A DNA stretch of 64,000 bases from an uncultured Candidatus Saccharibacteria bacterium. Its GTDB lineage: Bacteria > Patescibacteriota > Saccharimonadia > CAILAD01 > GCA-016700035. Positions within the stretch are counted from its first letter, which is position 1. Each line of letters begins with the position of its first letter. The notes beneath the pieces were generated by a model. It was not told the DNA's origin and searched no databases. It saw only the letters and a program-made list of their open reading frames with translations. This document shows positions 14,509 through 57,753 of the stretch, one piece after another. The stretch is from contig CAZHSY010000001.1 in the NCBI GenBank assembly GCA_964535385.1, positions 29,007 through 93,006 on the forward strand. Direction: 5' to 3'. A program made the position numbers and the translations under genes.

Positions 14509-15858
14509 ATGTCTTCAAATCGCCCATGGTCAGAATATCTATCCTCCGAGGCTCGTGATGACCAGAGTGACACTCTTGAACCCGAACTCGATGGTGAGCG
14601 CTATACTCGCTTAGCCCGAACAGTTGATACTTTGCGTGAAAATCCGATGCTTGCAAATATGGATCGTCAGTTAGCCCTTAAACTAGCTCGCATCATGTCG
14701 ATCTATACTGACACTCAGGCGGCCTGGGAACGTTATCAGACTCTCCAACCGTCTGTCCAAGATCAAGTCTTACCACTTAAGGGCTTAGATTTTGCAACTT
14801 TTGCTCATCTTCATAATGATATCCAAAACCTGGACTTAAGCGATATTGACCCATCTGATCGGCAAACGACGATTGGTAATATCGACAATAATCAAATCAA
14901 TCACTTAGAGACGGAACGCAGCCTAGAAACTATTCGTGACGACGGCCTCCATATCGAACTCGAGCCTGCACTCATTGATGATTTACGACAATTTGCCACC
15001 GAGACACCGCGCGAAGACTACCGGCGACGCCTCCCTTTAACTGAACTTTTCAAGAATGACAAGCGAGCTACCATCAATGGTTTAGCGAACTCTAAACTTT
15101 CACTCATAGCCCACGATGCCTTCGATCACATGTGGGGCTTCAATTTTGCGGAACAAACTGGCCTAAGTAACAAATATGCGGCTTTCTTCCAACAAATTGG
15201 CGATCCGGCCAAGACTGATATGTACAACCGACAATCAGAACTAGTGGCCACTACGCTCTTCGGCTATCGCCTCTTTAAAGATACGAATAATTCGTTCGAA
15301 CCAACCTTTGATATTGAAAAAGTTCACCGCGTCCTCAGCGCACAACAACTTCACCATCCCGAAGATTTTACTGTAAATCAAGCTGATGCTCTGGAGCTTA
15401 TCAACACCACCACTAACCCGCATGAGATTAGCTTGATTGGCTATAGTGTGAGTAATATCCATGATGAGATCGTCGAACAGCGGCGTAAACATGGCCGAAT
15501 TAAACTACTCGACGAACAAACCGGGGCTCCAGAGCGTGCAATGCGTACCCTCGAGCCTGAATACGTGGCTTTTGTTGTCGAAATGTTACATCAACTCTTC
15601 CAAAACGATCCACGCCTCCAACATGATCTGCTTGCTACTCAGGTTCTAACTGAACGCTATCTACACGAGATATCAGTCTCACCGCCTGGAAGCAGCGTCC
15701 CATCGCTAAAGCTTACACTCCAAGATATTCGTGATTGCGATCCATACGCTCCAGAACTACGCGAGGCTGGTCAAACCGATTGGTTTGTAGAGAACCCCGG
15801 TGCTCTCGCCAACAAGTATCGACCTCACGGCAGACCCGGTAACTTCTCCCCAGCTTAA
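14509..15858 (+). CDS. hypothetical protein
   Basis: 449 aa ORF. No motif recognised. Confidence 0.5.
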   Translation: MSSNRPWSEYLSSEARDDQSDTLEPELDGERYTRLARTVDTLRENPMLANMDRQLALKLARIMSIYTDTQAAWERYQTLQPSVQDQVLPLKGLDFATFAHLHNDIQNLDLSDIDPSDRQTTIGNIDNNQINHLETERSLETIRDDGLHIELEPALIDDLRQFATETPREDYRRRLPLTELFKNDKRATINGLANSKLSLIAHDAFDHMWGFNFAEQTGLSNKYAAFFQQIGDPAKTDMYNRQSELVATTLFGYRLFKDTNNSFEPTFDIEKVHRVLSAQQLHHPEDFTVNQADALELINTTTNPHEISLIGYSVSNIHDEIVEQRRKHGRIKLLDEQTGAPERAMRTLEPEYVAFVVEMLHQLFQNDPRLQHDLLATQVLTERYLHEISVSPPGSSVPSLKLTLQDIRDCDPYAPELREAGQTDWFVENPGALANKYRPHGRPGNFSPA

Positions 15859-16628
15859 TGCTTCTGCGCATCCTTCATGAGCGTATGAGCCGCAATCTTT
15901 GCTATGCCATGTAATTGCCGAAAAGCCGCCGCTATTTGAGGTGATTCTATAAGCACTCCAATCGTCTCTTCAGCATACGAAATGATTGCTGTCTTATCAC
16001 CATAAGTGTAAATATTGACTGGCTCGTTATAGGCCTCGCGTGGCAACCAAGCCATGTCCCGTCCTAAACGTTCGTCATTCTTTTTTGCATACCGCATCAC
16101 ATCTTCTTCAGCTGGTTCGATGCCATGGACTCCTAGGCCAAGCTCGTGACGTTTTTCAATGAATTTATAGAGCTGCTCACCAAGCAGGTTATTATCACCA
16201 TCTGACCGAATGAAATAGACATCCTTGGCAGTCCGGAGCTGATCGCGATACATGTCTAAAATCCCTTCTTTACCCTCAAAGTAGCGTACCCCTGGTCTGT
16301 TTTGATAGGTGTAGAAATAATTCAAGAGCGCCGGCATGCTGGCCTTCACCTGTTGCTCAGCCTGATGCACTTCCTTGCGGCGTTTCTCCATAAGCCTCTC
16401 GAGAGCGATTGGATTCTCCACCTCATAGGCTAATTTCTTGCCAATTTTATTGCGCTTCACCAGATTCAGCTCCTCGAGTCGCTCGAGGACGGTGTAAGCA
16501 TTGGTACGAGTTTCACCCGTGCGATCAGCTAGGGCTGGTGGGGTCATCTGTCCACCTTTAATCAGCTCCAAGTAAAGCCTCGCCTGTGATGATGTTAATC
16601 CAAGCTGTAATAACGTATTTTCATTCAT
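15855..16628 (-). CDS. TrmB-family HTH transcriptional regulator
   Basis: 257 aa. N-terminal winged helix (LGLTSSQARLYLELIKGGQMTPPALADRTGETRTNAYTVLERLEELNLV) typical of TrmB-like regulators. Confidence 0.6.
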   Translation of the reverse strand: MNENTLLQLGLTSSQARLYLELIKGGQMTPPALADRTGETRTNAYTVLERLEELNLVKRNKIGKKLAYEVENPIALERLMEKRRKEVHQAEQQVKASMPALLNYFYTYQNRPGVRYFEGKEGILDMYRDQLRTAKDVYFIRSDGDNNLLGEQLYKFIEKRHELGLGVHGIEPAEEDVMRYAKKNDERLGRDMAWLPREAYNEPVNIYTYGDKTAIISYAEETIGVLIESPQIAAAFRQLHGIAKIAAHTLMKDAQKH

Positions 16629-16699
16629 TTTGTCGGATTCATTACGACATTTATTATATAGAGTTTACAGATATGATACAACTTTTTAACTTTTCTATA

Positions 16700-16728
16700 T
16701 TGACATTTATATAATATTCTGCCATAAT
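16700..16728 (+). promoter_or_regulatory. sigma70-like promoter of the hammerhead-punctuated operon
   Basis: TTGACA, a 17 nt spacer, then CATAAT, in an AT-rich spacer. This is followed by a GC-rich leader ending in CGACAGAAGGAG and then the ATG at 16801. Confidence 0.55.
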
Positions 16729-16800
16729 GCACAAGGTCAAGGCATAGCGCCAAAACCCGGGCAGCGACGCCCGCCCGCACCCCGACAGAAGGAGAGCACC

Positions 16801-17064
16801 ATGCCCACCGCCACATCGCCCGAAGTCATCGAGGAATGGTACGAGGAGGAGAGTAACTCCGACTTCATCATCGTCAACTACCCTCTGGACGAGAGCTCAT
16901 CAGCAAGATGGACTCTCTACAGCGAGAGCGACGATGAAGAGTTCGGCACCTGCTACACCTACATCCACGACCGCACCTACGACAACTGTCCGGAAGGATG
17001 GGAGATGTGGGGAGCAGACCCGGATGAGGGTGGCTGGGACATGCCGGACTCTTGGTATGACTGA
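16801..17064 (+). CDS. highly acidic small protein (possible DNA-mimic/anti-restriction-like)
   Basis: 87 aa, extremely rich in D/E/W/Y (EEWYEEESNSDF, SESDDEEFG, DPDEGGWDMPDSWYD). About 60% GC. Confidence 0.5.
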   Translation: MPTATSPEVIEEWYEEESNSDFIIVNYPLDESSSARWTLYSESDDEEFGTCYTYIHDRTYDNCPEGWEMWGADPDEGGWDMPDSWYD

Positions 17065-17114
17065 GAGGAACTTCTCCGCTCCGGGAGGGCGGCGCACAAG
17101 CGCCCCTCCCCACC

Positions 17115-17170
17115 CCGACTCGGCCGAATGACGGCCCTGATGAGCTCACCGCAAGGTGGACGAAAGTCAG
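17115..17170 (+). ncRNA. candidate type III hammerhead ribozyme (copy 1)
   Basis: The element reads cCGAC-UC | GGCCG-aauga-CGGCC | CUGAUGA | GCUCACC-GCAA-GGUGGAC | GAAA | GUCAG. The cleavage triplet is CUC. Stem II carries a GNRA loop. It is preceded by a small hairpin at 17091-17104. Confidence 0.6.
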
Positions 17171-17190
17171 CCGCACCCCGAAAGGAAAAA

Positions 17191-17403
17191 ATGACGGACT
17201 ACGAGGCCCAGGCAAGAGCCGCAGAACTGCGCGGACAGGCAGAAGCCGCTAGGCTGCGGGCACGAGCCCTCGAAGAACAGGCTGCGCAACTTCTCCACAG
17301 CAGTAACGCGCCAATTCAGCCAGGGCAACACAAGTGCGAATGCTCAAGATGCGAAGTACCCTGGGGAACAATCGCCGACGCCTACGCGTCGCCTCGCATC
17401 TAG
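17191..17403 (+). CDS. small coiled-coil/Cys-motif protein
   Basis: About 70 aa. Start ATG is 8 nt after GAAAGGAAAAA. Sequence: MTDYEAQARAAELRGQAEAARLRARALEEQAAQLL...HKCECSRCEVPWG. The track ORF 17128.. starts inside the ribozyme and is probably too long. Confidence 0.45.
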   Translation: MTDYEAQARAAELRGQAEAARLRARALEEQAAQLLHSSNAPIQPGQHKCECSRCEVPWGTIADAYASPRI

Positions 17404-17423
17404 GCTCTGGCCGACAAGGTTCC

Positions 17424-17501
17424 GGGGCGTCCTTCCAAAACGCCCCCTGACTCGCGGGAACAGTCCCGCCTGATGAGCCCGGTCACCCCTGCGAAAGTCA
17501 G
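17424..17501 (+). ncRNA. candidate hammerhead ribozyme (copy 2) with upstream protective hairpin
   Basis: GGGGCG-uccuuccaaaa-CGCCCC hairpin, then CUGAC-UC | GCGGG-aacagu-CCCGC | CUGAUGA | gcccggucaccccugc | GAAA | GUCAG. The core boxes and stems I and III are conserved, but stem II pairs poorly in this copy. Confidence 0.5.
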
Positions 17502-17529
17502 CCCGCACCTCGACAGAAGGAGCAAGTAC

Positions 17530-18126
17530 ATGAGCAACGTTGTGATCCCCGACGGTCGCGAGATCTACATCTCGGTCGACATCGAAGCCGACGGGCCGAT
17601 TCCCGGCGACTACTCGATGGTCTCGCTCGGCGCCAAAGTCATCGGCTACGGCGAGGAGGAGTTCTACGCCGAACTGGCTCCGGTCAGTGACAACTGGGTC
17701 CCAGAGGCTCTGGCTGTCAGCGGCTTTAGCCGCGAAAAGACGCTCACCTTCCCCGACGCAGCCACTGAAACCACCCGATTTGAGGGCTGGCTCGATGGAC
17801 TCTACGCCCAGCACACCACCCTCTACGGTGGCAAGTGGGTACTCTTCCCCAAGCTGGTCATGGTCGGCTTCAATGCCCCCTTCGACTGGAGCTTCGTGAA
17901 CTGGTACCTGCACCACTTCGCTGGCCGCAACCCGCTCGGTATCAGTGCCCTGGACATCAAAGCGATATACCTCGGCCTGACCGGTTGCAACTGGGGTGAG
18001 ACCAGCATGCGGCGACTGCCTGCCGAGCTCCGACCGAGTGATGGCTTGAGCCACAACGCCCTCGAGGATGCTCGCGATCAAGGTCGCATGTTCGAGCAGC
18101 TCATGGCGCGGCTCCAAGCTAACTAG
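17530..18126 (+). CDS. DEDDh-family 3'-5' exonuclease (DnaQ/RNase T/oligoribonuclease-like)
   Basis: Start at AAGGAGcaaguacATG. Exo I motif SVDIEADGP, Exo II-like FNAPFDWSFV, Exo III HNALEDARD (H-x4-D). About 199 aa. Confidence 0.65.
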   Translation: MSNVVIPDGREIYISVDIEADGPIPGDYSMVSLGAKVIGYGEEEFYAELAPVSDNWVPEALAVSGFSREKTLTFPDAATETTRFEGWLDGLYAQHTTLYGGKWVLFPKLVMVGFNAPFDWSFVNWYLHHFAGRNPLGISALDIKAIYLGLTGCNWGETSMRRLPAELRPSDGLSHNALEDARDQGRMFEQLMARLQAN

Positions 18127-18140
18127 GCAAACAAGGTTCC

Positions 18141-18221
18141 GGGGCGTCCTTCCAAAACGCCCCCTGACTCGGCGAGTAATGCGCTCGCCCTGATGATGAC
18201 CACCGCTAGGTCGAAAGTCAG
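18141..18221 (+). ncRNA. candidate hammerhead ribozyme (copy 3) with upstream hairpin
   Basis: GGGGCG...CGCCCC hairpin, then CUGAC-UC | GGCGAG-uaaugcg-CUCGCC | CUGAUGA | u-GACC-accgcua-GGUC | GAAA | GUCAG. Confidence 0.6.
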
Positions 18222-18249
18222 CCGCACCTCGAAAAAAAGGAGCAAACAG

Positions 18250-18849
18250 ATGAAGAAAATCGTCCTAACTGGTGGCCCTTGTGCCGGTAAGACCAGCGTC
18301 GTACAGGCAGTCCAGCAGCACTTCGGCGAGGTCGTCAGCTTCGTACCCGAGGTTGCAACTATGCTCCTCTCAAGTGGCTGGCCCTTGCCCGGTCGCGATA
18401 TCGACTGGACTCCCAACTGGCGCGACACCTTCCAGCGAGCCATTGTCACGACCCAGCGAGAGCTTGAGGATGCCTACGAGCTAACTGCCCGGCAACACGA
18501 CCAGCAACTCTTGTTGACTGATCGCGGCATCATGGACGGCGCCGCCTACCACCCGAGCAATCGGGCTTTTCTTGAAGCCACTAACACCGATCACGAGGCA
18601 GCATTGAGCCGCTACACAGCCGTTGTTCATCTCGAATCAATCGCCGTGGCCAATCCCAGTCTCTATTCGCGGGGTAACAATCCCTACCGGTATGAGGACT
18701 TGGACGAAGCCATTTCCCTGGAGGCGGCCACCCGCCGAGCCTGGCTGGATCATCCACAACACGTCGTCATTGAAGGTGATGATCTGACCCACAAGACTCA
18801 GACTGTATTACAGCTCATCCAGGAGGTACTCGACAACGATTCACTCTAA
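18250..18849 (+). CDS. P-loop NTPase, AAA_28/NadR-type nucleoside-kinase-like
   Basis: Start at AAGGAGcaaacagATG. Walker A LTGGPCAGKTS. About 199 aa with a compact kinase-like architecture. Confidence 0.6.
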   Translation: MKKIVLTGGPCAGKTSVVQAVQQHFGEVVSFVPEVATMLLSSGWPLPGRDIDWTPNWRDTFQRAIVTTQRELEDAYELTARQHDQQLLLTDRGIMDGAAYHPSNRAFLEATNTDHEAALSRYTAVVHLESIAVANPSLYSRGNNPYRYEDLDEAISLEAATRRAWLDHPQHVVIEGDDLTHKTQTVLQLIQEVLDNDSL

Positions 18850-18857
18850 AAGGTTCC

Positions 18858-18936
18858 GGGAGGTCCTTGCAAAACCTCCCCTGACTCGGCCGAATGACGG
18901 CCCTGATGAGCTCACCGCAAGGTGGACGAAAGTCAG
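18858..18936 (+). ncRNA. candidate hammerhead ribozyme (copy 4) with upstream hairpin
   Basis: GGGAGGU-ccuugcaaa-ACCUCCC hairpin, with compensatory changes relative to copies 2 and 3. Then CUGAC-UC | GGCCG-aauga-CGGCC | CUGAUGA | GCUCACC-GCAA-GGUGGAC | GAAA | GUCAG. The core is identical to copy 1. Confidence 0.65.
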
Positions 18937-18963
18937 CCGTACCTCAAAAAAAGGAGCAAGTAG

Positions 18964-19437
18964 ATGTCCGAGATCGAACGCAAGTGGCGCCTGGATGATG
19001 TACCGGGACGGCTTCTCCGCAACGTCACCCCACAATTACTCCAGCAAAGCTACCTCATCGTAGCTCCTGACGAACTCCGATTGCGTAGTGATGGTGAGCG
19101 CAACTGGCTGACAGTCAAATCTGACGGTAAGCTCACTCGAGAAGAATGGGAGGTCGAACTACCAGACTGGGCCTACCGACAGCTCGCAATATCGGCTCCA
19201 TACAGCCTCGAAAAGCGCCGCTACCCAGTGATGGTCGAGGGACGCGTCTGGGAAGTCGATATCTACTCAGGGGCTCTAGCTGACTTGATCACTGTCGAGG
19301 TCGAGGTGGCCAGTGAAGCCGAGGCCCAAACTCTAGGCCTACCAACATGCTTCGGACACAGCCAAGAGGTCACCGACGATAGTCGCTACAAGAACAAACG
19401 ATTGGCCGTCGACGGACTACCTGGCACTGACGAGTAA
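18964..19437 (+). CDS. CYTH-domain protein (triphosphate tunnel metalloenzyme; class IV adenylate cyclase/triphosphatase family)
   Basis: 157 aa. The N-terminal MSEIERKW carries the ExExK signature of CYTH domains. Later acidic motifs (EVDIY, VEVEVASE) are consistent with the tunnel fold. Confidence 0.65.
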   Translation: MSEIERKWRLDDVPGRLLRNVTPQLLQQSYLIVAPDELRLRSDGERNWLTVKSDGKLTREEWEVELPDWAYRQLAISAPYSLEKRRYPVMVEGRVWEVDIYSGALADLITVEVEVASEAEAQTLGLPTCFGHSQEVTDDSRYKNKRLAVDGLPGTDE

Positions 19438-19443
19438 GGCCAC

Positions 19444-19497
19444 GATCCCGAAGCGTTAACATTAATGCGCTTCGGGATCTCAACTTTTTACTTTTTC
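19444..19497. terminator. bidirectional rho-independent terminator (end of ribozyme operon; convergent msrB)
   Basis: GATCCCGAAGCG-uuaacauuaau-GCGCUUCGGGAUC followed by TCAACTTTTTACTTTTTC. Confidence 0.7.
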
Positions 19498-19880
19498 TTC
19501 AGATCCAAGCTAGCCGAATTAATACAAAACCGCTGCCCTGTAGTCTCCTTCGGTCCGTCCTCAAACATATGTCCAAGGTGGGCTCCACACCGACTACAAA
19601 CTACCTCTGTGCGATGCATACCATCCGAGTCATCTGTGCGCATCACAATACTACCTGGCACGGCCTGGTCGAAGCTTGGCCAGCCACTCACCGACTCAAA
19701 CTTATGCTCACTACCAAAGAGCACTTGTCCGCAAACCTTACAGGTATAGGTGCCGTCGGTGTGCTCATCCCAGTACTTACCTGTAAACGGCGCCTCTGTC
19801 CCCGCCTTCTGGGTAATGTCATACTCTTCGGGTGTTAGGCGCTCTTTGAGCTTTTCACGGTCAACCTTATACTGAGTCAT
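19488..19880 (-). CDS. msrB: peptide-methionine (R)-S-oxide reductase
   Basis: 130 aa. CxxC...CxxC zinc motif and RCGAHLGHMFEDGP active-site region. Confidence 0.9.
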   Translation of the reverse strand: MTQYKVDREKLKERLTPEEYDITQKAGTEAPFTGKYWDEHTDGTYTCKVCGQVLFGSEHKFESVSGWPSFDQAVPGSIVMRTDDSDGMHRTEVVCSRCGAHLGHMFEDGPKETTGQRFCINSASLDLKKK

Positions 19881-23823: not shown

Positions 23824-23913
23824 TGGCGGAGAGAGAGGGATTCGAACCCTCGATACGGTTACCCGCATACACGCTTTCCAAGCGTGCTCCTTCAGCCACT
23901 CGGACACCTCTCC
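23824..23913 (-). tRNA. tRNA-Ser (anticodon GGA)
   Basis: Reverse complement reads GGAGAGGTGTCCGAGTGG...CTTGGAAAG...GGTTCGAATCCCTCTCTCTCCGCCA. It has a long variable arm and an encoded CCA. Confidence 0.8.
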
Positions 23914-51492: not shown

Positions 51493-51585
51493 GGAGAGGT
51501 ACCCAAGTGGCTGAAGGGGCTGGTTTGCTAAACCGGTAGGGGGGCGCAAGTTCCCGCGAGGGTTCGAATCCCTCCCTCTCCGCCA
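51493..51585 (+). tRNA. tRNA-Ser (anticodon GCT)
   Basis: GGAGAGGTACCCAAGTGG..CTGGT-TTGCTAA-ACCGG, a long variable arm, GGTTCGAATCCCTCC, and CCA encoded. Confidence 0.8.
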
Positions 51586-51842
51586 GATAAAATGGACATG
51601 GCCTTTAGGTCGTGTCCATTTTACTTTGCGATGAAAGGTGAATGAACCCTCGGGTTCGGTAATCAATTTGTGTAGAACTAGAGTAACTTTAGTTATCTTT
51701 GTCGAGCAGTGAAGATTATATCCTTCCGACTACGTCACAAGGAGCACTCCCCCCTCTCATATGTGCATGCTTGCACCTCAGGATAACTATGCTACAATAG
51801 GTGTAATTACGAACAAAAGCCATACAATACAGGAGGAGAAGA

Positions 51843-52133
51843 ATGAACAAACAATCGTTTCCCACCGGTACCCCGTTCCAGCAAAAAGTCTGGTCGGAGA
51901 TTGCCAAGATTCCTAGAGGCACTACTATTACATATACCGAATTAGCTATTAGGGTAGGGAAGCCAAGAGCCGTCCGAGCTGTGGCGTCGGCTTGTGGCAA
52001 AAATCCATTTATAGGTGAGATTCCCTGTCATCGCGTCATCGCCTCCGATGGCTCTCTCGGCGGCTACAGCGGGGAAGGGGGAGTGGCTCGCAAACGCCAG
52101 CTCCTCGTCGAAGAAGGCGCCATCTCGGCTTAG
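51843..52133 (+). CDS. methylated-DNA--protein-cysteine methyltransferase (Ogt/MGMT DNA-binding catalytic domain)
   Basis: 96 aa. Active site PCHRVI. An upstream promoter TTGCAC-16-TACAAT and an AGGAGGAG ribosome-binding site. Confidence 0.7.
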   Translation: MNKQSFPTGTPFQQKVWSEIAKIPRGTTITYTELAIRVGKPRAVRAVASACGKNPFIGEIPCHRVIASDGSLGGYSGEGGVARKRQLLVEEGAISA

Positions 52134-52194
52134 CCTCTCGAAAAATGCCTCGAAACCAGATATAATCAGCTGCGTTACTATCTCAATCAGACCT

Positions 52195-52287
<93 letters not shown>

Positions 52288-52393
52288 GAGAAGGCCCTGA
52301 TTTTATCAGGGTTTTGTCATCTGGCTAAGTTGTGAATTGAACCCATGGGGTTCGATAATCTCTTTACGATTATTTTGCTATCATAAAAACACC

Positions 52394-54349
52394 ATGCATC
52401 TCCCCCTCCAACCATATGGCTGGTTCGTAGCAGCACTCATGAGTACCGGTTTCATGGGCCTCTATACACTCGTTGTTTGGGCGGGTCTGAAGCACCTTAA
52501 AGTCGGCCTAAACCGAGGTGAAAACCTGGCTTTAAGCTTAGTAATTGGGATTTTAGCCTCTAGCTGGATTACCTTTGGTACCTGGTATGTTGCTGGCCAA
52601 GCTTGGGGGACAATGATCAGTTGGCTCATACCGCTCTGGATCATAGTCTGGCAGCGTGCCGCCATACTGAGGCTCACGGTCGACGCCTGGAAGGCGCTTA
52701 AACGCGTTTTGCGACACCCTCAACGCCTATGGTTATTGCGAGCTGGCTTTTGGGCTATCTTAACGCTTATAGCCGCCTGGATGTGCTACACGCACTTCTT
52801 ACAACCCTCCCCAGATGGCTGGCGCTCGGCTGGCAATACCTGGGCAGATCTAGCGCTTCATATGTCACTAGCCAGTCACTTTGTCGTTCAGGGCGTGCAC
52901 AACTTGATGCTTCCTGTCTTCCCGGCTGCAAAACTAACTTACCCCTTCCTGGTCGACCTTCAAGCGGCCCAGCTATACCAGACCGGCCATAGTTGGCAGG
53001 TTGCCTTTGGCTACACCTCTTGGCTACTGATCATGAGCAGCTGCTACCTCTTATACCGTATCGCCACCCGCATCACCGGCCGTAAGCTGGCCGGTATCAT
53101 TTGGGTTGTCCTAATCCTCTTGGCCGGTACAGCCGCTGGCGTAATACCGCTCTGGCGTGATCTTTTGAGTGGTAGCCTAGAAGCGACTAAAGATTACTCG
53201 CACCTAAGCGTTGGGGCAGCCGCCAGTCAAGAGCACTTTGCTAATCTCGTCACTTCGCATCTACTACCACAGCGCAGCTACCTGATGGGCTTGGCTGTTG
53301 CAAGTAGTTGTGTACTCCTCCTGCAAAGCTTTTTTGAGATCTTAAAGAATACAAAACTCCAACACTGGCTGGTGCTCGGTATCATTATCGGACTCCTCCC
53401 ACTGGCTCATGTCCATTCAGCTTTTGTCGCGGCCGGCCTGCTCGGTGGCGCCGCGATCTGGCTCAGTATTAAAAAACAGCCCCAAGCCCGCCTAGCATGG
53501 CTTGGGGTACTTATCGCTGGTGTAATTGCACTACCGCAGCTTATATGGCAGTTTGGTGGCAGTTTTCACGGCGGCTTCTCATATTGGCACCTTGGCTGGA
53601 TGACACCCGAGGGGGGGAGTACCTTGGTCTTCTGGTGGATTAATTGGGGACTCCTGCTTGTGTTTATTCCATTAGCCATCTGGCGGGCCAGTCGTCGGCA
53701 GTGGTCGCCTATTCTATGGTTACTCATTCTCGAAGCCGTCCTGATAATGATCGCCTGCAATCTCTACATCTTCCAGCCTAACCCCTGGGACAATATGAAG
53801 TTCATTACTTATGGCTATATTTGGTTGACGCTTCCAGTAGCTTGGCTCTTGGCAGACTTCACTCGACACGGATGGCCAGAGAAGATCCTCGTAGGAGTCA
53901 CCTTGCTCATCATCACAACGCCCGGCATGCAGTCCGTCTGGCTAGAGGGGACGCAAAACTACGTTTTTCTCAGTAATGGCGATCTGAAACTAGCTGACTA
54001 CGTGAGTCAAAACACCGCTCCGATCACCACGATACTGACCTCCGATCGACACAATCATCCAGTATCCACCCTGACTGGGCGGACGATTATTATGGGCTAC
54101 CGAGGCTGGCTGAGTAGTTATGGCATCAATTACGCATCAACCGAAAACGACTTAGATGCGATCTGGCTACAGGAAGAAACAACTGCTAATTTGATTAAAA
54201 AATACCAAGTTCAATACATCGTGCTCGACGACACCGAAGCCACCGAGAAGGGTGTCGATATTGAGAGACTCAACCAAACCTACTCTGAAATTTATTATCA
54301 AGACGGCTGGCATATCTGGGCGGTTGACCAAGTGGTCGGACAACGATAG
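52394..54349 (+). CDS. large polytopic membrane protein (possible GT-C-type glycosyltransferase)
   Basis: More than 12 hydrophobic helices. Likely start MHLPLQPYGW; the track start at 52337 lies inside a conserved intergenic palindrome. Confidence 0.45.
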   Translation: MHLPLQPYGWFVAALMSTGFMGLYTLVVWAGLKHLKVGLNRGENLALSLVIGILASSWITFGTWYVAGQAWGTMISWLIPLWIIVWQRAAILRLTVDAWKALKRVLRHPQRLWLLRAGFWAILTLIAAWMCYTHFLQPSPDGWRSAGNTWADLALHMSLASHFVVQGVHNLMLPVFPAAKLTYPFLVDLQAAQLYQTGHSWQVAFGYTSWLLIMSSCYLLYRIATRITGRKLAGIIWVVLILLAGTAAGVIPLWRDLLSGSLEATKDYSHLSVGAAASQEHFANLVTSHLLPQRSYLMGLAVASSCVLLLQSFFEILKNTKLQHWLVLGIIIGLLPLAHVHSAFVAAGLLGGAAIWLSIKKQPQARLAWLGVLIAGVIALPQLIWQFGGSFHGGFSYWHLGWMTPEGGSTLVFWWINWGLLLVFIPLAIWRASRRQWSPILWLLILEAVLIMIACNLYIFQPNPWDNMKFITYGYIWLTLPVAWLLADFTRHGWPEKILVGVTLLIITTPGMQSVWLEGTQNYVFLSNGDLKLADYVSQNTAPITTILTSDRHNHPVSTLTGRTIIMGYRGWLSSYGINYASTENDLDAIWLQEETTANLIKKYQVQYIVLDDTEATEKGVDIERLNQTYSEIYYQDGWHIWAVDQVVGQR

Positions 54350-54372
54350 CCTAAGATAAAGAGGGAGAAGAT

Positions 54373-54696
54373 ATGCGCAAACACGTTAATGGCTTTATAG
54401 AATTCATCCGCGAACAGGGCGTGGTTGGCTTGGCAATTGGTTTTATCCTTGGAGCAGCAGTAGCAAAGGTTGTCTCGTCTTTGGTCTCGGATATTATTAA
54501 TCCACTGATTGGACTCTTGCTTGGCAGTACTTCTGGCCTGAAAGAAGTCAGTGTGGCTGTGGGTGGAGCCAAACTAATGGTGGGTAATTTTCTAAGTGTC
54601 TTGCTTGATTTTGCCATTGTAGCTGGCGTCATCTATCTGATCGTTAAGGTCTTGCGGCTCGACCGTCTCGACCGGAAGAAAGATGACAAAAAATAA
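54373..54696 (+). CDS. mscL: large-conductance mechanosensitive channel
   Basis: 107 aa (MRKHVNGFIEFIREQGVVGLAIGFILGAA...), two TM helices, and a charged C-terminus. Confidence 0.85.
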   Translation: MRKHVNGFIEFIREQGVVGLAIGFILGAAVAKVVSSLVSDIINPLIGLLLGSTSGLKEVSVAVGGAKLMVGNFLSVLLDFAIVAGVIYLIVKVLRLDRLDRKKDDKK

Positions 54697-54758
54697 TCAC
54701 CAGATAAGAACGCGGGCGTAGATTTTTTCCGTAAGCTGAAGCATAATAGTGCTAGATT

Positions 54759-55490
54759 ATGCCTCCAGCCACACCCCAGCCAAATAGCGTGATGCCACCG
54801 ACACCGGAGGTGCCGGCTGGTGGAGTAGTTCAGCCGGATCTCGGTCAACCACCTGTAATTAATCCCGCACCAGCACCGGTTTTTGGAACCCCACTCGAGC
54901 AAATACCAATTACAAGTCCTAGTACTCCACCAACCTTTGGTGCTCAATCCAATGACCCAACGCTAGTCTCAGAAAACTCAGAACAGAGTGGTGAACCCGA
55001 ACAAACGGAAGCGGCACCCGATGATAGTACCGCACCACTCTTAGCTTGGGAAAATCAGCCAGCCAGCCAAGGCGCTCATCGGCCAACTATCTGGTACGTG
55101 ATTCTGGGGATTATTTTTGCCGGCAGTATTATCGCCGCCATTCTGACTCGCGCTTGGCTATTTATTCCTCTGGGGATACTCGTACCCTGGGCCTTAGCTA
55201 TGTATGCTGGGCGAGGCGAGGCCAGTCATCGTTATGCCCTGTATCCAGGCGGTATCGAGATCGATGACAAATTTACACCCTACGATACCTATAAAGCCTA
55301 TTTTTATGTACACGAAGATGGGCGATCGGTCTTCGAGCTCATTCCTACCCAGCGTCTGGGAGCTCTCGTAACCCTGCTGGCATCGCCGAACAATGTCGAT
55401 GATATCGATGATATCCTCAGTAGTGTTTTGCCAGAGACTGAACCACAGGGCAATGTTGGCGAATCAGTTTTCAAACGCTTGAAGTTCTAA
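54759..55490 (+). CDS. proline-rich membrane protein, hypothetical
   Basis: 243 aa. Pro-rich N-terminus followed by two TM helices. Confidence 0.45.
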   Translation: MPPATPQPNSVMPPTPEVPAGGVVQPDLGQPPVINPAPAPVFGTPLEQIPITSPSTPPTFGAQSNDPTLVSENSEQSGEPEQTEAAPDDSTAPLLAWENQPASQGAHRPTIWYVILGIIFAGSIIAAILTRAWLFIPLGILVPWALAMYAGRGEASHRYALYPGGIEIDDKFTPYDTYKAYFYVHEDGRSVFELIPTQRLGALVTLLASPNNVDDIDDILSSVLPETEPQGNVGESVFKRLKF

Positions 55491-55647
55491 CCTTTACGAC
55501 TCCACTGAAATACTGTAGAATAACCTCTGCTTTTGCACCTTCGATTCCAAAACAACCAATGGAGCGCTTGATTACTCAAACCATCTGTTTTTTTCAAAAT
55601 GGAGTAATGCAAAATGATTGGTTGTTTTGAAATTAAAAACTAGATGT

Positions 55648-55690
55648 GGGCTCGTAGCTCAGCTGGATGTTTCGCTTTAGCGAATTACAG
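55648..55690 (+). pseudogene. truncated tRNA 5' fragment (tandem partial duplicate of downstream tRNA-Arg with its upstream spacer)
   Basis: aaattaaaaactagatgtg-GGCTCGTAGCTCAGCTGGAT then diverges. The same leader plus 5' half recurs at 55747-55786 before the intact tRNA. Confidence 0.4.
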
Positions 55691-55765
55691 AAGGCAACGC
55701 ACTATCCTTACCGCGAGGAAGAGAAGAACTACGAAAGATGCCACAAAAATTAAAAAACTAGATGT

Positions 55766-55842
55766 GCGCTCGTAGCTCAGCTGGATAGAGCGCCAGTTTG
55801 CGGTACTGGAGGTCGCAGGTTCAAATCCTGCCGAGCGCACCA
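55766..55842 (+). tRNA. tRNA-Arg (anticodon read as GCG)
   Basis: GCGCTCG-TA-GCTCAGCTGGATAGAGC-G-CCAGT-TTGCGGT-ACTGG-AGGTC-GCAGGTTCAAATCCTGC-CGAGCGC-ACCA. Confidence 0.75.
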
Positions 55843-56370
55843 TTGACTAGAAGCTAGGGTTTAGAATTTAGGAGTTAGAAAATAGTTCTGATTTTGTCGT
55901 CACACTGGTTTCCAAGCCCTAGCCTCTAACTCAATTTGTCTTGTGTATTCGAGGAGAGGTACTGTCCTCGCTCGATCGCACCAGAGAAATCTGGTATAGT
56001 CAGGCAAGCATGCGTGTACCACCAGGGAAGTGGCCTCACAACCCACGAAAGTGTAAGCAGACAATAAAGATCGGTTACCGCCTTTATTGTCAGGTAGAGA
56101 AGCTTCACTGCACGCGTACTTCGTCGCTGCCACGTCCACCATACCTGCCGGGCTACAGACCCACGCGGACAGACGTGGCTAGTTCGCACCTTTAAAAGAT
56201 CTGGGTAACCAGATGTATGCTTGAGATACATATCCACTCTGCGGAGTAGTTGCCCGCCAGCAGTGGAGAGAGGCTTAAGTCTACCTTGATCAATCTCGCC
56301 CAAGGGTACAAGAGGTTGGTTAAAATGACTAGGGATAGGTGGCACTCAAGAACCATTTATCCTGTCCACG

Positions 56371-56428
56371 GACTGTAGCTTAAGGCAAAACGCCTACGGA
56401 GATAAAGGTTCGATTCCTTTCAGTCCGA
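56371..56428 (+). other. tRNA-like minihelix (acceptor stem plus T-arm, no anticodon/D arms)
   Basis: GGACTGT...AAAGG-TTCGATT-CCTTT-CAGTCC. A canonical T-loop with a 6-7 bp acceptor pairing and only a short internal hairpin (AGGC-aaaac-GCCT). Confidence 0.3.
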
Positions 56429-56482
56429 CGATCACGAGAGAGCTCGGTGTCGCCAACGCCACGTTAAGAGTAATCACGTGAC

Positions 56483-56557
56483 GAGGGGGTAAGCTCAAGT
56501 TGGTAGAGCACCCCGCCACGGCGGGGAGGTATGCTGGTTCGAATCCAGCCCCCTTCA
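56483..56557 (+). tRNA. tRNA-like gene with atypical 6-nt anticodon loop (possibly Arg-ACG)
   Basis: GAGGGGG-TA-AGCTCAAGTTGGTAGAGC-A-CCCCG-CCACGG-CGGGG-AGGTAT-GCTGGTTCGAATCCAGC-CCCCTTC-A. The D and T arms are good. The anticodon arm is 1 nt short, and no CCA is encoded. Confidence 0.4.
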
Positions 56558-56744
56558 CGATCGTTCCTTCTTCTGGTGAGCGCCAGAAGAGCTTTGTCGA
56601 CAAGACAAAAACCGGCCTGAGAGAGTACTCTCTCAGGCCGGTACTTCTTTCTTATTTAGAAAATCAGTTTTTATCATTGCGAAAAAAATATCGCTTGCGC
56701 TATAGTAGATTCAATACTTAGGATAATTAAAGGAAATTTTCAGC

Positions 56745-57491
56745 ATGCCGCCCAAGAAAGCACCGACAGAATCAGTAAAGGCTCAAGCAGCCAGTCCTGC
56801 AGGTGCGACTGCACTTATGCTTGACTACCCTGGAGCCTTTGGTCTATTCAAATCCAGTAAAGAAGCCATGGTACGCATTTTCGGTACCATAGTTTTGCTC
56901 TACCTCATCATACTAGCCATTGATATTGTCACCAGCATTATCACTGGTGTTATTGGGCTCGACAACTCAATACGCTCATTGATTTATAATATTATTAGCG
57001 GCGGCATTCAGATCGTTGCGATACCGATGTGGACCTACATTATGCTGCGCTCAGTCTACGGTTATAGGGAGACTGTTGGGACTGCCCTTGAGTATGCGAG
57101 GCCAAATATCCTTCGGTTCTTTCTAGCTAGTCTACTAGCGGGCCTAGCTATGGTTGGTGGGCTACTTCTCTTCATTATCCCGGGCATTATCTTCGCGATG
57201 CGCTTCTCAATGACTAATTATATTCTGGTTGATAACCCAGAGCTGGACGCCGTAGAAGCCATGCGCCGAAGCTGGCGCATGACCAAGGGTAATCTTAGTA
57301 AAATCTGGGGGATCGTCGGTGTAACTGTTCTCATGTTCATTCCTGTCATTACAATCATTGGGATTATCCCAGCTATCATTCTGCTCTACTTCTACGCCGC
57401 CGCCGGTACTATTCTCTACACCTATCTCAAGCAGCAGCCTGTCGAGCCTATAGCAGCCCCAACTCCTCAACCAGCCGTAGCCGCGAAATAG
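56745..57491 (+). CDS. polytopic membrane protein, hypothetical
   Basis: 248 aa with about six TM helices and a short Pro/Ala C-terminal tail. Confidence 0.5.
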   Translation: MPPKKAPTESVKAQAASPAGATALMLDYPGAFGLFKSSKEAMVRIFGTIVLLYLIILAIDIVTSIITGVIGLDNSIRSLIYNIISGGIQIVAIPMWTYIMLRSVYGYRETVGTALEYARPNILRFFLASLLAGLAMVGGLLLFIIPGIIFAMRFSMTNYILVDNPELDAVEAMRRSWRMTKGNLSKIWGIVGVTVLMFIPVITIIGIIPAIILLYFYAAAGTILYTYLKQQPVEPIAAPTPQPAVAAK

Positions 57492-57583
57492 CGACTAGTA
57501 ATTAGGGGCTAGAAGTTAGAAATTAGTAACTTTATCAGATATACTATCTCCTATCGTCTAGTTTCTAACTTCTAAGTTATTGC

Positions 57584-57660
57584 GCGCCCGTAGCTCAGCT
57601 GGATAGAGCGTTGGTTTCCGGTACCAAAGGTCGGGAGTTCGAATCTCTTCGGGCGCACCA
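57584..57660 (+). tRNA. tRNA-Arg (anticodon CCG)
   Basis: GCGCCCG-TA-GCTCAGCTGGATAGAGC-G-TTGGT-TTCCGGT-ACCAA-AGGTC-GGGAGTTCGAATCTCTT-CGGGCGC-ACCA. Confidence 0.85.
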
Positions 57661-57661
57661 C

Positions 57662-57753
<92 letters not shown>

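What the first reader, a model, noticed from the sequence alone, without database searches (positions are those of the whole stretch)
16700..19497. Operon punctuated by four tandem hammerhead-ribozyme-like elements
Seen in sequence: a promoter (TTGACA-17-CATAAT) precedes five plus-strand genes. Four of the five intergenic spacers contain a conserved roughly 60-80 nt unit. Each unit has:
- a GC hairpin (GGGGCG..CGCCCC, or the co-varying GGGAGGT..ACCTCCC);
- CUGAC-UC;
- a variable hairpin (stem I);
- CUGAUGA;
- a variable hairpin (stem II, with a GNRA loop in two copies);
- GAAA, then GUCAG (pairing with CUGAC as stem III);
- ccgcacc(u/c)cga(a/c)a-AAGGAG, with an ATG 7-9 nt later.
The invariant boxes are exactly the hammerhead catalytic core (C3-A9, G12-A14, a C-U-C cleavage triplet). 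The stems vary with compensatory changes. Together this argues for a folded, functional RNA rather than a chance repeat. Self-cleavage would cut the polycistronic mRNA between every gene. Each upstream message would end in a protective 3' hairpin. Each downstream message would begin with the ribozyme fold plus a strong ribosome-binding site. Tandem hammerheads separating genes have been described in phage-like regions (established knowledge). Here they organise a compact high-GC cassette inside a lower-GC genome.
Basis: partly seen in the sequence, partly recalled or inferred. Interest (0 to 1): 0.85.

Follow-up and report, generated by a model that had tools for sequence, protein, structure and literature searches.

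The report
Hammerhead ribozymes punctuating a Saccharibacteria operon
Four self-cleaving hammerhead RNA motifs, each preceded by a small folded RNA element, sit between the five genes of one operon in a Saccharibacteria (candidate phyla radiation) genome; the same arrangement recurs in related bacteria, which suggests the cell cuts one long message into separately stabilised single-gene messages.

Summary
All four intergenic spacers of the operon at 16801-19437 (+) hold a type III hammerhead, with predicted cleavage after C17121, C17453, C18170 and C18887. Rfam's curated thresholds miss them: only copy 2 hits, at 29.8 bits against the 48.5 needed. A model built here finds exactly these four in the 64 kb window (45-98 bits; next best 11), plus about 80 more matches in related loci. 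Across 48 distinct sequences every catalytic nucleotide is invariant, only N7 varies, and the stems co-vary (95.7% paired; 0 of 500 shuffles). The cassette is not phage-like and not a one-off. A divergent TrmB-type regulator followed by hammerhead-separated genes (Cap18-like 3'-5' exonuclease, AAA_28 P-loop protein, CYTH triphosphatase) recurs in Saccharibacteria and in a Buchananbacteria genome. The most likely function is co-transcriptional cutting into single-gene mRNAs with protected ends; this is inferred, not shown. Copies 1 and 2 are the weakest. Clustered bacterial hammerheads were described in 2011, so this is a new variant of a known kind. Interest is moderate.

The parts
16700..16728 (+). 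Sigma-70-type promoter of the operon: TTGACA, 17-nt spacer, TG-extended CATAAT. It overlaps a divergent promoter-like site for the regulator gene (minus strand, 16740 to 16711).
   Evidence: 11 of 12 matches; 6 promoter-like sites in the region against 0.9 expected.
15855..16628 (-). Divergently transcribed TrmB-family regulator. It is the conserved neighbour of the hammerhead operon in all related loci.
   Evidence: Pfam TrmB E=4.9e-10. Same arrangement in L005, L010, L012, L014, L017, L037, L047, L051, L058, L060, L062 and L063.
16736..16800 (+). 5' leader of gene 1. It has no ribozyme but carries the same leader motif (CGCACCCCGACA, 16776-16787) and a Shine-Dalgarno sequence.
   Evidence: no model hit here.
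16801..17064 (+). Gene 1: 87-aa, very acidic protein of unknown function.
   Evidence: no Pfam, NCBIfam, PADLOC or PHROG match.
17083..17110 (+). Module 1, 5' element: long GC hairpin (GGGAGGG-cg-GCGC-acaa-GCGC-CCCUCCC). This is the 'first-in-operon' type.
   Evidence: Folding (-21.1 kcal/mol). The same type sits before the first hammerhead(s) in L010, L012, L037, L047, L051 and L056.
17115..17170 (+). Hammerhead 1 (type III). Stem III CCGACU/AGUCAG with a C.A mismatch; C17 = 17121; stem I 17122-17136; core 17137-17143; stem II 17144-17161 with a GCAA loop; GAA 17162-17164.
   Evidence: Model hit of 45.5 bits, E about 1e-9. Active fold -14.7 against MFE -19.9 kcal/mol.
17191..17403 (+). Gene 2: 70-aa coiled-coil protein with a Cys motif. 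A homologue lies in the L005 operon.
   Evidence: L005 2618-2860: MRDYEAEARAAE....
17416..17446 (+). Module 2, 5' element: H-type pseudoknot. S1 AAGG 17416-17419 pairs with CCUU 17431-17434. P1 GGGGCGU 17424-17430 pairs with ACGCCCC 17440-17446. L3 is CCAAA.
17447..17501 (+). Hammerhead 2. Stem III CUGACU/AGUCAG; C17 = 17453; stem I 17454-17469; core 17470-17476; stem II 17477-17492, which is weak (2 bp, a 2x2 internal loop, then 2 bp).
   Evidence: 98 bits. The only Rfam RF00008 hit, 29.8 bits. Relatives in L037 and L056 have better-paired stem II. Energies.
17530..18126 (+). Gene 3: DEDD 3'-5' exonuclease (Rv2179c-like / CBASS Cap18-like).
   Evidence: PADLOC PDLC00753 E=8.3e-57; PDB 7t2s E=1.8e-37; homologues carry PF16473.
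18133..18163 (+). Module 3 pseudoknot. S1 AAGG 18133-18136 pairs with CCUU 18148-18151. P1 18141-18147 pairs with 18157-18163.
18164..18221 (+). Hammerhead 3. C17 = 18170; stem I 18171-18189 (7 bp); core 18190-18196; an extra U at 18197; stem II GACC/GGUC.
   Evidence: 78.5 bits. Active fold -21.2 against MFE -22.0 kcal/mol. The same U insertion occurs in L009 and L047.
18250..18849 (+). Gene 4: AAA_28-family P-loop protein (kinase-like).
   Evidence: Pfam AAA_28 E=1.4e-24; 578 homologues, many in CPR phyla.
18850..18880 (+). Module 4 pseudoknot. S1 AAGG 18850-18853, directly after the TAA stop codon, pairs with CCUU 18865-18868. P1 GGGAGGU 18858-18864 pairs with ACCUCCC 18874-18880.
18881..18936 (+). 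Hammerhead 4. C17 = 18887; stem I 18888-18902; core 18903-18909; stem II 18910-18927 with a GCAA loop.
   Evidence: 95.9 bits. Active fold -19.4 against MFE -19.9 kcal/mol.
18964..19437 (+). Gene 5: CYTH / triphosphate-tunnel metalloenzyme.
   Evidence: Pfam CYTH E=4.7e-5; PDB 2fbl (NE1496) E=5.8e-22.
17172..17183 (+). Leader motif CGYACCYNNANA, between the ribozyme and the Shine-Dalgarno sequence. It also occurs at 16776, 17504, 18223 and 18938.
   Evidence: 5 of 5 cassette genes, 3 other sites in 64 kb, 1.7 expected. Conserved in related loci.
19444..19499 (+). Terminator-like hairpin (GATCCCGAAGCG...CGCTTCGGGATC) followed by a T-rich tail, at the end of the operon.
   Evidence: Read from the sequence. 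The scan tool did not list it because the loop exceeds 8 nt.

Best explanation
The operon is transcribed from one promoter as a five-gene RNA. Each intergenic spacer is filled by a three-part module.

1. A stable structure begins within a few nucleotides of the upstream stop codon. It is a long GC hairpin at the first junction and an H-type pseudoknot (AAGG..P1..CCUU..CAAA..P1') at the others. Its 3' strand runs directly into hammerhead stem III.
2. A type III hammerhead follows, which cleaves itself after C17.
3. A 22-28 nt leader (CGCACCUCGAAA plus a Shine-Dalgarno sequence) precedes the next start codon.

Self-cleavage would turn the polycistronic RNA into single-gene mRNAs. Each upstream product would end in the hairpin or pseudoknot plus CUGACUC with a 2',3'-cyclic phosphate, a poor substrate for 3' exonucleases. 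Each downstream product would start with a 5'-OH at the base of stem I and carry the folded ribozyme body ahead of a standardised ribosome-binding region. That would uncouple the stability and translation of each gene from its neighbours. It is a natural counterpart of engineered ribozyme insulators.

Shown: the motifs, their covariation, their exact placement, and their conservation with this operon. Inferred: cleavage itself, end protection, and the effect on expression.
For: Ribozyme identity:
- The catalytic core is invariant and N7 alone varies in 48 distinct sequences.
- Stems I, II, III and P1 are 95.7% paired, against 35-47% when partners are slid. 21 of 23 pairs have double changes, and 0 of 500 shuffles reach this. 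The result repeats on a second alignment.
- The window holds exactly four hits.

Placement:
- The module starts -10 to +7 nt from the upstream stop codon in most cases.
- The hammerhead ends 22-28 nt before the next start codon.

Conservation:
- All protein-anchored operon loci examined carry 2-5 modules. These are L012, L013, L014, L056/57, L058/59, L060/61, L062 and L063.
- Exonuclease homologues in a CBASS-like context carry none.

3'-end role:
- Terminal modules with no downstream gene occur in L010, L051, L033, L007 and L036. This argues that forming the upstream 3' end is itself selected.

Precedent:
- Multi-hammerhead polycistronic RNAs cleave at all sites in vitro (PMC3088659).
- RiboJ-type hammerhead insulators cleave with 0.84-0.94 efficiency in vivo, and uncleaved mRNA decays faster (PMC7536230).
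Against: - No cleavage, RNA-end or half-life data exist for this organism.
- Rfam's curated hammerhead models do not reach threshold.
- Copy 1 has a stem III mismatch and copy 2 a degraded stem II. Their active folds lie about 5 kcal/mol above the MFE.
- In every copy a competing helix can form between the core CUGAU and the 3' strand GUCAG.
- No loop-loop tertiary contact could be identified.
- The conserved pseudoknot loops and the leader motif are more conserved than simple end protection requires, so part of the function may be missing from this account.
Confidence: 0.7

Rival explanations
1. Regulated (allosteric) ribozymes. The pseudoknot next to stem III would be a sensor for a small molecule (for example a nucleotide-related metabolite) or a protein such as an operon product. 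It would stack on stem III and gate hammerhead folding, so that cleavage, and hence expression of the nucleotide-enzyme genes, responds to a signal.
For: - The pseudoknot is conserved with covariation in both helices. Its single-stranded L1 (UUCC) and A-rich L3 (CAAA) are conserved beyond what pairing requires.
- P1 abuts stem III with a 0-1 nt linker.
- The operon encodes nucleotide-handling enzymes, a typical riboswitch-regulated class.
- A competing inactive helix exists.
Against: - The first junction uses a plain long hairpin instead of the pseudoknot, with the same hammerhead.
- Pseudoknot sequences differ completely between lineages (AAGG/CCUU, GAGGC/GCCUC, UUGAC/GUCAA). That fits a structural role better than a conserved ligand pocket.
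- No Rfam riboswitch family matches, even at E up to 10.
- An A-rich L3 is a generic stabiliser of H-type pseudoknots (established knowledge).
Confidence: 0.12
2. The modules exist mainly as boundaries of exchangeable gene units. Repeated units of about 90-130 nt in direct orientation would let genes be swapped, lost or gained by recombination, or by an RNA intermediate excised by two hammerheads. RNA cleavage would be secondary or a relic.
For: - Gene order differs among related operons. In the close relatives L058 and L060 the exonuclease and AAA_28 genes are swapped, with breakpoints at the modules (79-86% nt identity).
- Copies within one operon are often near-identical. Window copies 1 and 4 are 98% identical; within-locus identity is 0.80 against 0.74 between loci.
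- The operon is 5-17 points richer in GC than its flanks in every locus.
- The small genes vary from locus to locus.
Against: - Recombination needs only sequence identity. It does not explain an invariant catalytic core alongside freely co-varying stems, nor the exact stop-to-module and module-to-start spacing.
- No reverse transcriptase, integrase or recombinase lies in the loci.
- The operon sits at a fixed place next to the TrmB gene.
Confidence: 0.08
3. These are non-catalytic intergenic repeats (REP-like elements, terminator or attenuator hairpins, or decayed ribozyme relics) that merely resemble hammerheads.
For: - No hit at Rfam gathering thresholds.
- Copies 1 and 2 have defects.
- The MFE folds of isolated units are not the hammerhead fold.
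Against: - All catalytic positions are invariant in 48 distinct sequences from different phyla, while N7 and the stems vary.
- Compensatory changes occur in 21 of 23 pairs.
- The pattern is expected 0.00 times by chance.
- No T-tract follows the hairpins.
- Nearest-neighbour folding penalises the hammerhead junction in known active ribozymes as well (established knowledge).
Confidence: 0.04
4. The hairpin loop CCUU would act as an anti-Shine-Dalgarno sequence, masking the downstream AAGGAG until cleavage separates them. That would make cleavage a translational on-switch.
For: The loop CCUU(C) is complementary to the AAGGA of the downstream ribosome-binding sites in the window.
Against: - Loop variants co-vary with the upstream segment (own 4.37 against swapped 3.94; 0 of 2000) but not with the downstream 32 nt (3.97 against 3.85; 272 of 2000).
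- Terminal modules that have no downstream gene keep the same loop and the same upstream partner.
Confidence: 0.03

Closest known systems
Clustered hammerhead ribozymes flanking genes in bacterial prophage transcripts (Perreault et al. 2011, PLoS Comput Biol; PMC3088659)
   Same: Several hammerheads in one orientation separate single genes or short gene blocks of one transcript. Processing of a long RNA into gene-length mRNAs was proposed, and triple arrangements cleaved at all sites in vitro.
   Different: - This locus is not prophage-associated. No integrase or phage families were found.
[quoted passage not shown]
- Each ribozyme is part of a fixed three-part module with a conserved 5' hairpin or pseudoknot and a 3' leader motif.
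- All copies are type III.
Hammerhead ribozyme type III (Rfam RF00008; viroid, satellite and genomic hammerheads)
   Same: Identical catalytic core, NUH cleavage triplet (C-U-C), three-stem topology with stem III open, and a G10.1-C11.1 closing pair.
   Different: - Scores below the Rfam gathering threshold (29.8 against 48.5 bits for copy 2, none for the others).
- Stem II is longer than in the Rfam consensus.
- One subgroup, including window copy 3, carries an extra nucleotide after A9.
- The context is a messenger RNA rather than a replicating circular RNA.
RiboJ and related engineered ribozyme insulators (hammerhead plus hairpin placed before a ribosome-binding site)
   Same: A hammerhead placed just upstream of an RBS removes upstream RNA and gives every gene a standard 5' end. 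Cleaved mRNAs are more stable than uncleaved ones (PMC7536230).
   Different: - RiboJ is synthetic, derived from the sTRSV satellite ribozyme, and its extra hairpin lies 3' of the ribozyme.
- Here the extra structure lies 5' of the ribozyme and would stay on the upstream product.
- This is functional resemblance only, not common descent.
Compact H-type pseudoknots with an A-rich third loop (for example preQ1-I and SAM-II aptamers, or viral frameshift pseudoknots)
   Same: A 4-5 bp S1 and a 6-7 bp S2 (P1), no L2, and a 5-nt A-rich L3 that could lie in the S1 minor groove. Total size is about 31 nt.
   Different: - No sequence or Rfam similarity to any of these families.
- It sits directly after a stop codon and is fused to a ribozyme stem.
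- Helix sequences differ completely between lineages.

Membership tests
Hammerhead ribozyme (type III) | Conserved core C3-U4-G5-A6-N7-G8-A9 and G12-A13-A14 | tested here: met
   All four window copies read CUGAUGA ... GAA. These positions are invariant in 48 distinct relatives, with N7 = U 37, C 8, A 3.
Hammerhead ribozyme (type III) | A15.1-U16.1 pair and a non-G nucleotide (H17) 5' of the scissile bond | tested here: met
   GAAA / U-C in all copies. U16.1 and C17 are invariant. The cleavage triplet is C-U-C.
Hammerhead ribozyme (type III) | Three helices (I, II, III) around the core, supported by covariation | tested here: met
   - Stem I: 99.6-100% of cells paired, 5 of 5 pairs with double changes.
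- Stem II: about 90% paired, 4-5 of 5 pairs with double changes.
- Stem III: 95-96% paired.
- In the window, copy 2's stem II is weak and copy 1's stem III has a C.A mismatch.
Hammerhead ribozyme (type III) | Type III topology: stems I and II closed by loops, stem III open | tested here: met
   The order is stem III 5' strand, C17, stem I hairpin, core, stem II hairpin, GAA, stem III 3' strand.
Hammerhead ribozyme (type III) | Score at or above the curated Rfam threshold (RF00008, 48.5 bits) | tested here: not met
   No hit at gathering thresholds. Copy 2 scores 29.8 bits, E=0.0012, and the others do not appear even at E up to 10. None of about 40 relatives in 14 loci is detected. This is a limit of the model's sensitivity, not a defining biochemical feature.
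Hammerhead ribozyme (type III) | Site-specific self-cleavage giving 2',3'-cyclic phosphate and 5'-OH ends | not testable with these tools
   Needs in vitro transcription or RNA end mapping.
Hammerhead ribozyme (type III) | Tertiary contact between stems/loops I and II, which gives fast cleavage at physiological Mg2+ | tested here: inconclusive
   No conserved loop-loop complementarity was found. The only hint is that hairpin I and II lengths are anticorrelated (rho = -0.46, p = 0.005, uncorrected for phylogeny).
Prophage-associated clustered hammerheads (Perreault 2011) | Several same-strand hammerheads flanking individual genes of one transcript | tested here: met
   Four in the window; 2-5 in each related operon.
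Prophage-associated clustered hammerheads (Perreault 2011) | Location in a prophage or near an integrase | tested here: not met
   - No phage-specific families among the cassette proteins.
- The neighbours are housekeeping genes: MsrB, M3 peptidase, GroEL, ValRS.
- The pattern has no hits in 2.9 million viral contigs.
- The position next to the TrmB gene is conserved across lineages.
H-type RNA pseudoknot | Two helices with crossing strands, each supported by covariation | tested here: met
   - S1 is 94.7% paired, with 4 of 4 pairs showing double changes, on an alignment fitted to S1.
- On an alignment not fitted to S1, the swap test gives 0 of 2000.
- P1 is 96.9% paired on the alignment not fitted to P1.
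- Unrelated sequence pairs occur in L062 and L063.
- This applies to window copies 2-4, not to copy 1.
Known riboswitch or other cis-regulatory RNA families (Rfam 15) | Match to a curated covariance model over the 5' element or the leader | tested here: not met
   With E up to 10 over 16650-19550, the only hits are the weak hammerhead hit and three chance-level hits inside coding sequence.

The most novel reading that the evidence does not exclude
The pseudoknot-hammerhead fusion would be a natural allosteric ribozyme. The pseudoknot, which stacks on stem III and competes with the alternative core/3'-strand helix, would bind a metabolite or one of the operon's own proteins. It would then set the cleavage rate at each junction. 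A reduced-genome CPR bacterium would thereby tune each gene of a nucleotide-handling operon after transcription, using RNA catalysis in place of the RNase and sRNA machinery it lacks.
Probability: 0.1. Interest if true: 0.85.

Novelty: new variant of a known kind. Interest (0 to 1): 0.58.

Why it matters
Bacterial hammerheads have been catalogued for 15 years, but their biological role is still largely conjecture, and most known examples sit in variable prophage regions.

Here the same three-part module (3' stabiliser, ribozyme, leader) is fixed between the genes of one conserved, regulator-controlled chromosomal operon. It recurs across Saccharibacteria and in at least one other CPR phylum. 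That gives a defined and comparable system for asking what ribozyme punctuation of an operon does for expression.

The work also shows three further things:
- A whole lineage of canonical hammerheads is invisible to Rfam-based annotation.
- An accessory pseudoknot, not reported in the literature searched here, is fused to stem III.
- The repeated modules coincide with breakpoints of gene-order changes.

For synthetic biology, this is a natural version of the ribozyme-insulator design.

Tried and rejected
- **Rfam at gathering thresholds, window and 14 related loci:** no hammerhead hits. This was rejected as evidence of absence once a custom model and covariation were available.
- **Viral contig scan with the box pattern:** nothing.
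- **Exact look-up of the window's own exonuclease, to fetch its contig:** not on record. GroEL homologues were used instead.
- **MAFFT alignment of all modules (A2):** it misregistered the upstream hairpin in about half the sequences. It was replaced by a clean 7-sequence seed and Infernal realignment.
- **Fixed-column test of the pseudoknot on A4:** impossible because spacer lengths truly differ. It was replaced by per-sequence swap tests and a second model.
- **Loop as an anti-Shine-Dalgarno sequence:** no covariation with the downstream region.
- **Possible tRNA genes downstream of the L019 and L049 modules:** none found.
- **Pfam and PHROG searches on the small operon proteins:** no significant matches.
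- **The 18-nt direct repeat flanking the cassette as a general insertion signature:** present only in the window.
- **Four of the 11 genome hits (L002, L003, L004, L011) and many of the 39 metagenome pattern hits:** chance matches without stems.

Full report
**1. The observation**

- A strong promoter, TTGACA-17-CATAAT with an extended TG, lies at 16700-16728 (11 of 12 matches).
- It precedes five plus-strand genes at 16801-17064, 17191-17403, 17530-18126, 18250-18849 and 18964-19437.
- The operon ends in a 12-bp hairpin with a T-rich tail at 19444-19499, read from the sequence.
- Each of the four intergenic spacers holds one unit with the boxes (C)UGAC-U-C, hairpin, CUGAUGA, hairpin, GAAA-GUCAG.
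- The exact box pattern occurs three times in the window against 0.00 expected. Copy 1 escapes it because it reads CCGACUC.
- Copies 1 and 4 are near-identical (94% over 71 nt; 98% over the ribozyme). The window alone therefore offers only three independent versions.

**2. Standard annotation does not see them**

- Rfam at its curated thresholds reports only eight tRNAs in the window.
- With permissive filters, only copy 2 matches Hammerhead_3, at 29.8 bits against the 48.5 required (E = 0.0012).
It is a property of the Rfam model instead: none of about 40 related hammerheads in 14 other loci reaches threshold either.

**3. Relatives**

- The box pattern found 11 stretches in one-genome-per-species contigs. 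Seven are convincing hammerheads, and five of those are in Candidatus Saccharibacteria MAGs.
- It found none in viral contigs and 39 stretches in metagenome contigs.
- A descriptor-style scan that accepts any stem III sequence showed that the hits come in clusters of three or four per locus. These clusters include other stem III sequences (CCGAC/GUCGG, CUGA/UCAG, UAAC/GUUA) and N7 = U, C or A.
- A covariance model built from a clean seven-sequence seed then found 64 strong matches in the sequence held at that point.
- With all filters off, it found exactly four in the 64 kb window: 98, 95.9, 78.5 and 45.5 bits, with the next best at 11 bits.

**4. Are they hammerheads?**

On the structure-aware alignment of 50 distinct sequences:
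- 95.7% of cells in the 23 modelled pairs are standard pairs. The figure is 75% for shuffled partners and 35-47% when partners are slid by 1-3 columns.
- 21 of 23 pairs show changes on both sides, and 0 of 500 shuffles reach any of the measures.
- The unpaired core behaves exactly as a hammerhead core should. C3, U4, G5, A6, G8, A9, G12, A13, A14, the A15.1-U16.1 pair, C17 and the G10.1-C11.1 pair are invariant in 48 distinct sequences.
- N7, the one core position known to be free, is U 37, C 8, A 3.
- A subgroup, including window copy 3, has one extra nucleotide after A9.

The topology is type III. The sequence evidence for genuine hammerheads is as strong as comparative analysis can make it. 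Catalysis itself was not, and could not be, tested here.

**5. The four window copies individually**

| Copy | Active fold (kcal/mol) | MFE (kcal/mol) | Note |
|---|---|---|---|
| 3 | -21.2 | -22.0 | Within 0.8 of the MFE |
| 4 | -19.4 | -19.9 | Within 0.5 of the MFE |
| 1 | -14.7 | -19.9 | C.A mismatch in stem III |
| 2 | -14.0 (best fold containing the hammerhead pairs: -17.1) | -18.8 | Stem II reduced to 2 bp, a 2x2 internal loop, then 2 bp |

- The relatives of copy 2 in L037 and L056 pair better in stem II.
- In all copies the 3' strand GUCAG can pair with the core CUGAU instead of with stem III, giving an inactive competitor.

**6. The '3' hairpin' is more than a hairpin**

The element 5' of each ribozyme comes in two kinds.
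- **At the first junction(s) of an operon** it is a long GC hairpin, GGGAGGG..GCGC-loop-GCGC..CCCUCCC. Window copy 1 has it at 17083-17110.
- **At later junctions** it is a 7-bp hairpin P1 whose stem co-varies (GGGGCGU, GGGAGGU, GGGCGGU, GGGUGGU, GGGAGCU and others). Its loop begins CCUU and ends CAAA, and it is preceded by AAGG-UUCC.

The 5' AAGG co-varies with the loop CCUU. Observed pairs are AGGG/CCCU, CAGG/CCUG, CAAG/CUUG, AGGU/ACCU, GAGGC/GCCUC and CGGGGU/ACCUCG. In more distant lineages the pairs are UUGAC/GUCAA and CGAC/GUCG.

Three tests support this pairing:
- On an alignment not fitted to it, each module's own 5' segment pairs with its own loop better than segments swapped in from other modules (4.10 against 3.68 +/- 0.09, and 4.37 against 3.94 +/- 0.09; 0 of 2000 in both tests).
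- On an alignment built with this helix modelled, it is 94.7% paired with double changes at all four pairs. P1, which was not modelled there, is still 96.9% paired.
- The rival idea, that the loop masks the downstream Shine-Dalgarno sequence, shows no covariation (272 of 2000).

Copies 2-4 therefore carry an H-type pseudoknot (S1 4-5 bp, P1 7 bp, A-rich L3) whose 3' strand continues into stem III with a 0-1 nt linker.

**7. Geometry**

- In most cases the module begins -10 to +7 nt from the upstream stop codon. In window copy 4 the AAGG follows the TAA stop directly.
- Wherever a gene follows, the ribozyme ends 22-28 nt before its start codon.
- That interval holds a conserved leader, CGYACCYNNANA, followed by the Shine-Dalgarno sequence. 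The motif precedes all five cassette genes, including gene 1, which has no ribozyme. It occurs only three more times in the 64 kb, against 1.7 expected.
- Several operons end with a terminal module that has no gene after it (L010, L051, L033, L007, L036).

**8. What the cassette is**

- Gene 3 is a DEDD 3'-5' exonuclease of the Rv2179c/Cap18-like kind (PADLOC 'Effector exonuclease' E = 8e-57; PDB 7t2s E = 2e-37; PF16473 in homologues).
- Gene 4 is an AAA_28 P-loop protein.
- Gene 5 is a CYTH triphosphate-tunnel enzyme related to NE1496.
- Genes 1 and 2 are small proteins without family matches.
- GroEL in the window is 79-85% identical to proteins labelled Candidatus Saccharibacteria. The neighbours are ordinary chromosomal genes.

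The same layout recurs in every locus fetched through the proteins rather than through the RNA pattern. That layout is a divergently transcribed TrmB-family regulator followed by hammerhead-separated small genes, exonuclease, AAA_28 and CYTH.
- L012, L013, L014 and L056/57, fetched via gene 3.
- L058/59, L060/61 and L062, fetched via gene 4, and the Candidatus Buchananbacteria locus L063.
- These carry 2-5 modules each. Some operons add a cytidylate kinase or a HIT hydrolase.
- Exonuclease homologues in a CBASS-like island (L015, L016) have no hammerheads.

The ribozymes therefore belong to this operon and not to the exonuclease family, and the operon is not phage-related. Its enzyme content suggests nucleotide handling; this is an inference.

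**9. Evolutionary behaviour**

- In every locus the coding sequence between ribozymes is 5-17 points richer in GC than the flanks.
- Copies within a locus resemble each other more than copies between loci (0.80 against 0.74).
- In the close relatives L058 and L060 the exonuclease and AAA_28 genes have swapped places, with breakpoints at the modules.
- The repeated modules therefore also behave as recombination substrates. I treat this as a by-product.

**10. Mechanism**

The best-supported account is operon punctuation, with the following steps.
- Co-transcriptional self-cleavage separates the cistrons.
- Each upstream mRNA ends, a few nucleotides after its stop codon, in a hairpin or pseudoknot plus a 7-nt tail with a 2',3'-cyclic phosphate.
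- Each downstream mRNA begins with a 5'-OH at the base of stem I and carries the folded ribozyme in front of a standard leader and ribosome-binding site.

Shown: identity, covariation, placement, and conservation with the operon. Inferred: cleavage, end protection, and insulation of expression.

Supporting points:
- Terminal modules without a downstream gene argue that forming the upstream 3' end is selected in its own right.
- Triple hammerhead RNAs from three bacteria cleaved at all sites in vitro (PMC3088659).
- Engineered hammerhead insulators cleave efficiently in vivo and stabilise the downstream mRNA (PMC7536230).

The conservation of the pseudoknot loops and of the leader motif is not fully explained by this account. 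That leaves room for a regulated (allosteric) version, to which I give about 0.1.

**11. Novelty**

- Clustered bacterial hammerheads and the mRNA-processing idea are published.
- I found no paper in the held library that links hammerheads or self-cleaving ribozymes with Saccharibacteria, the candidate phyla radiation or Patescibacteria. The library is incomplete, so this is absence of evidence only.
- New here are four things: the fixed association with one conserved, non-phage operon across CPR lineages; the three-part module with a pseudoknot fused to stem III; the invisibility of the lineage to Rfam thresholds; and the module-bounded gene rearrangements.
- I rate it a new variant of a known kind, with interest 0.58.

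Noticed in passing
window 16679-16696 and 19481-19498: An 18-nt direct repeat (CAACTTTTTAACTTTTCT / CAACTTTTTACTTTTTCT, 16 of 18 identical) brackets the whole cassette, promoter included. The right-hand copy overlaps the terminator's T-tract. None of 100 shuffles reaches it, but six other complete operons show no such bracket. It may be an insertion or rearrangement scar specific to this genome, or a T-rich coincidence.
   Followed up: partly
L060 9615-9705 (-): A further hairpin-plus-hammerhead module (24.5 bits; canonical core CUGACGA...GAAA) lies outside the operon. It sits directly after the stop codon of an unrelated 578-aa gene and about 480 nt upstream of groES. The module is therefore not strictly confined to the TrmB-linked operon in every genome.
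   Followed up: partly
L015 6001-6552 and L016 1204-1755: More distant homologues of gene 3 (52% identity) sit in a CBASS-like defence island, next to Cap17-like, QueC-like and SMODS proteins and beside a type I restriction system. They have no hammerheads.
   Followed up: partly
L058 5878-8581 versus L060 2559-4843: The exonuclease and AAA_28 genes are in opposite order in two closely related operons (79-86% nt identity), with breakpoints at the ribozyme modules. L058 7420-7720 also holds an uncalled zinc-ribbon ORF (MRIVRQG...) between two hammerheads.
   Followed up: yes
window 17409-17454, 18126-18171, 18843-18888: The start-to-start spacing of modules 2, 3 and 4 is exactly 717 and 717 nt. 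The upstream halves of modules 2 and 3 are 96% identical, whereas the ribozyme halves of modules 1 and 4 are the near-identical pair. The units look chimeric, as expected from gene conversion between repeats.
   Followed up: partly
L006 3389-3420, L009 642-680, L056 1803-1850: After the hammerhead that follows the exonuclease gene, several operons share a GAATTGGTATATC-like motif instead of the usual leader, and then an 85-170 nt gap before the CYTH gene. It may be an internal promoter.
   Followed up: no
all modules (catalogue): Total lengths of the stem I and stem II hairpins are anticorrelated (Spearman -0.46, p = 0.005, not corrected for relatedness). Typical combinations are 5+7, 6+5 and 7+4 bp. 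This may reflect a geometric constraint from a tertiary contact.
   Followed up: partly
L019 2705-2800; L049 625-720 and 1446-1577: Groundwater metagenome contigs carry modules with a longer P1 loop and a different pseudoknot (GAGGC/GCCUC, CGGGGU/ACCUCG). None of the operon genes is recognisable nearby, and no tRNA genes are present despite a tRNA-like downstream sequence.
   Followed up: partly
window 51493-57748 and 23827-23913: Eight tRNA genes, seven of them in a loose cluster at 51.5-57.7 kb. The match at 56369-56428 is only 60 nt long (42.1 bits), which is short for a tRNA.
   Followed up: no
window 16711-16740 (-): A promoter-like site for the TrmB-family gene (TTGACC-18-TATTAT) overlaps the operon promoter back to back. 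This is the classic layout for a regulator that controls both itself and the divergent operon.
   Followed up: no
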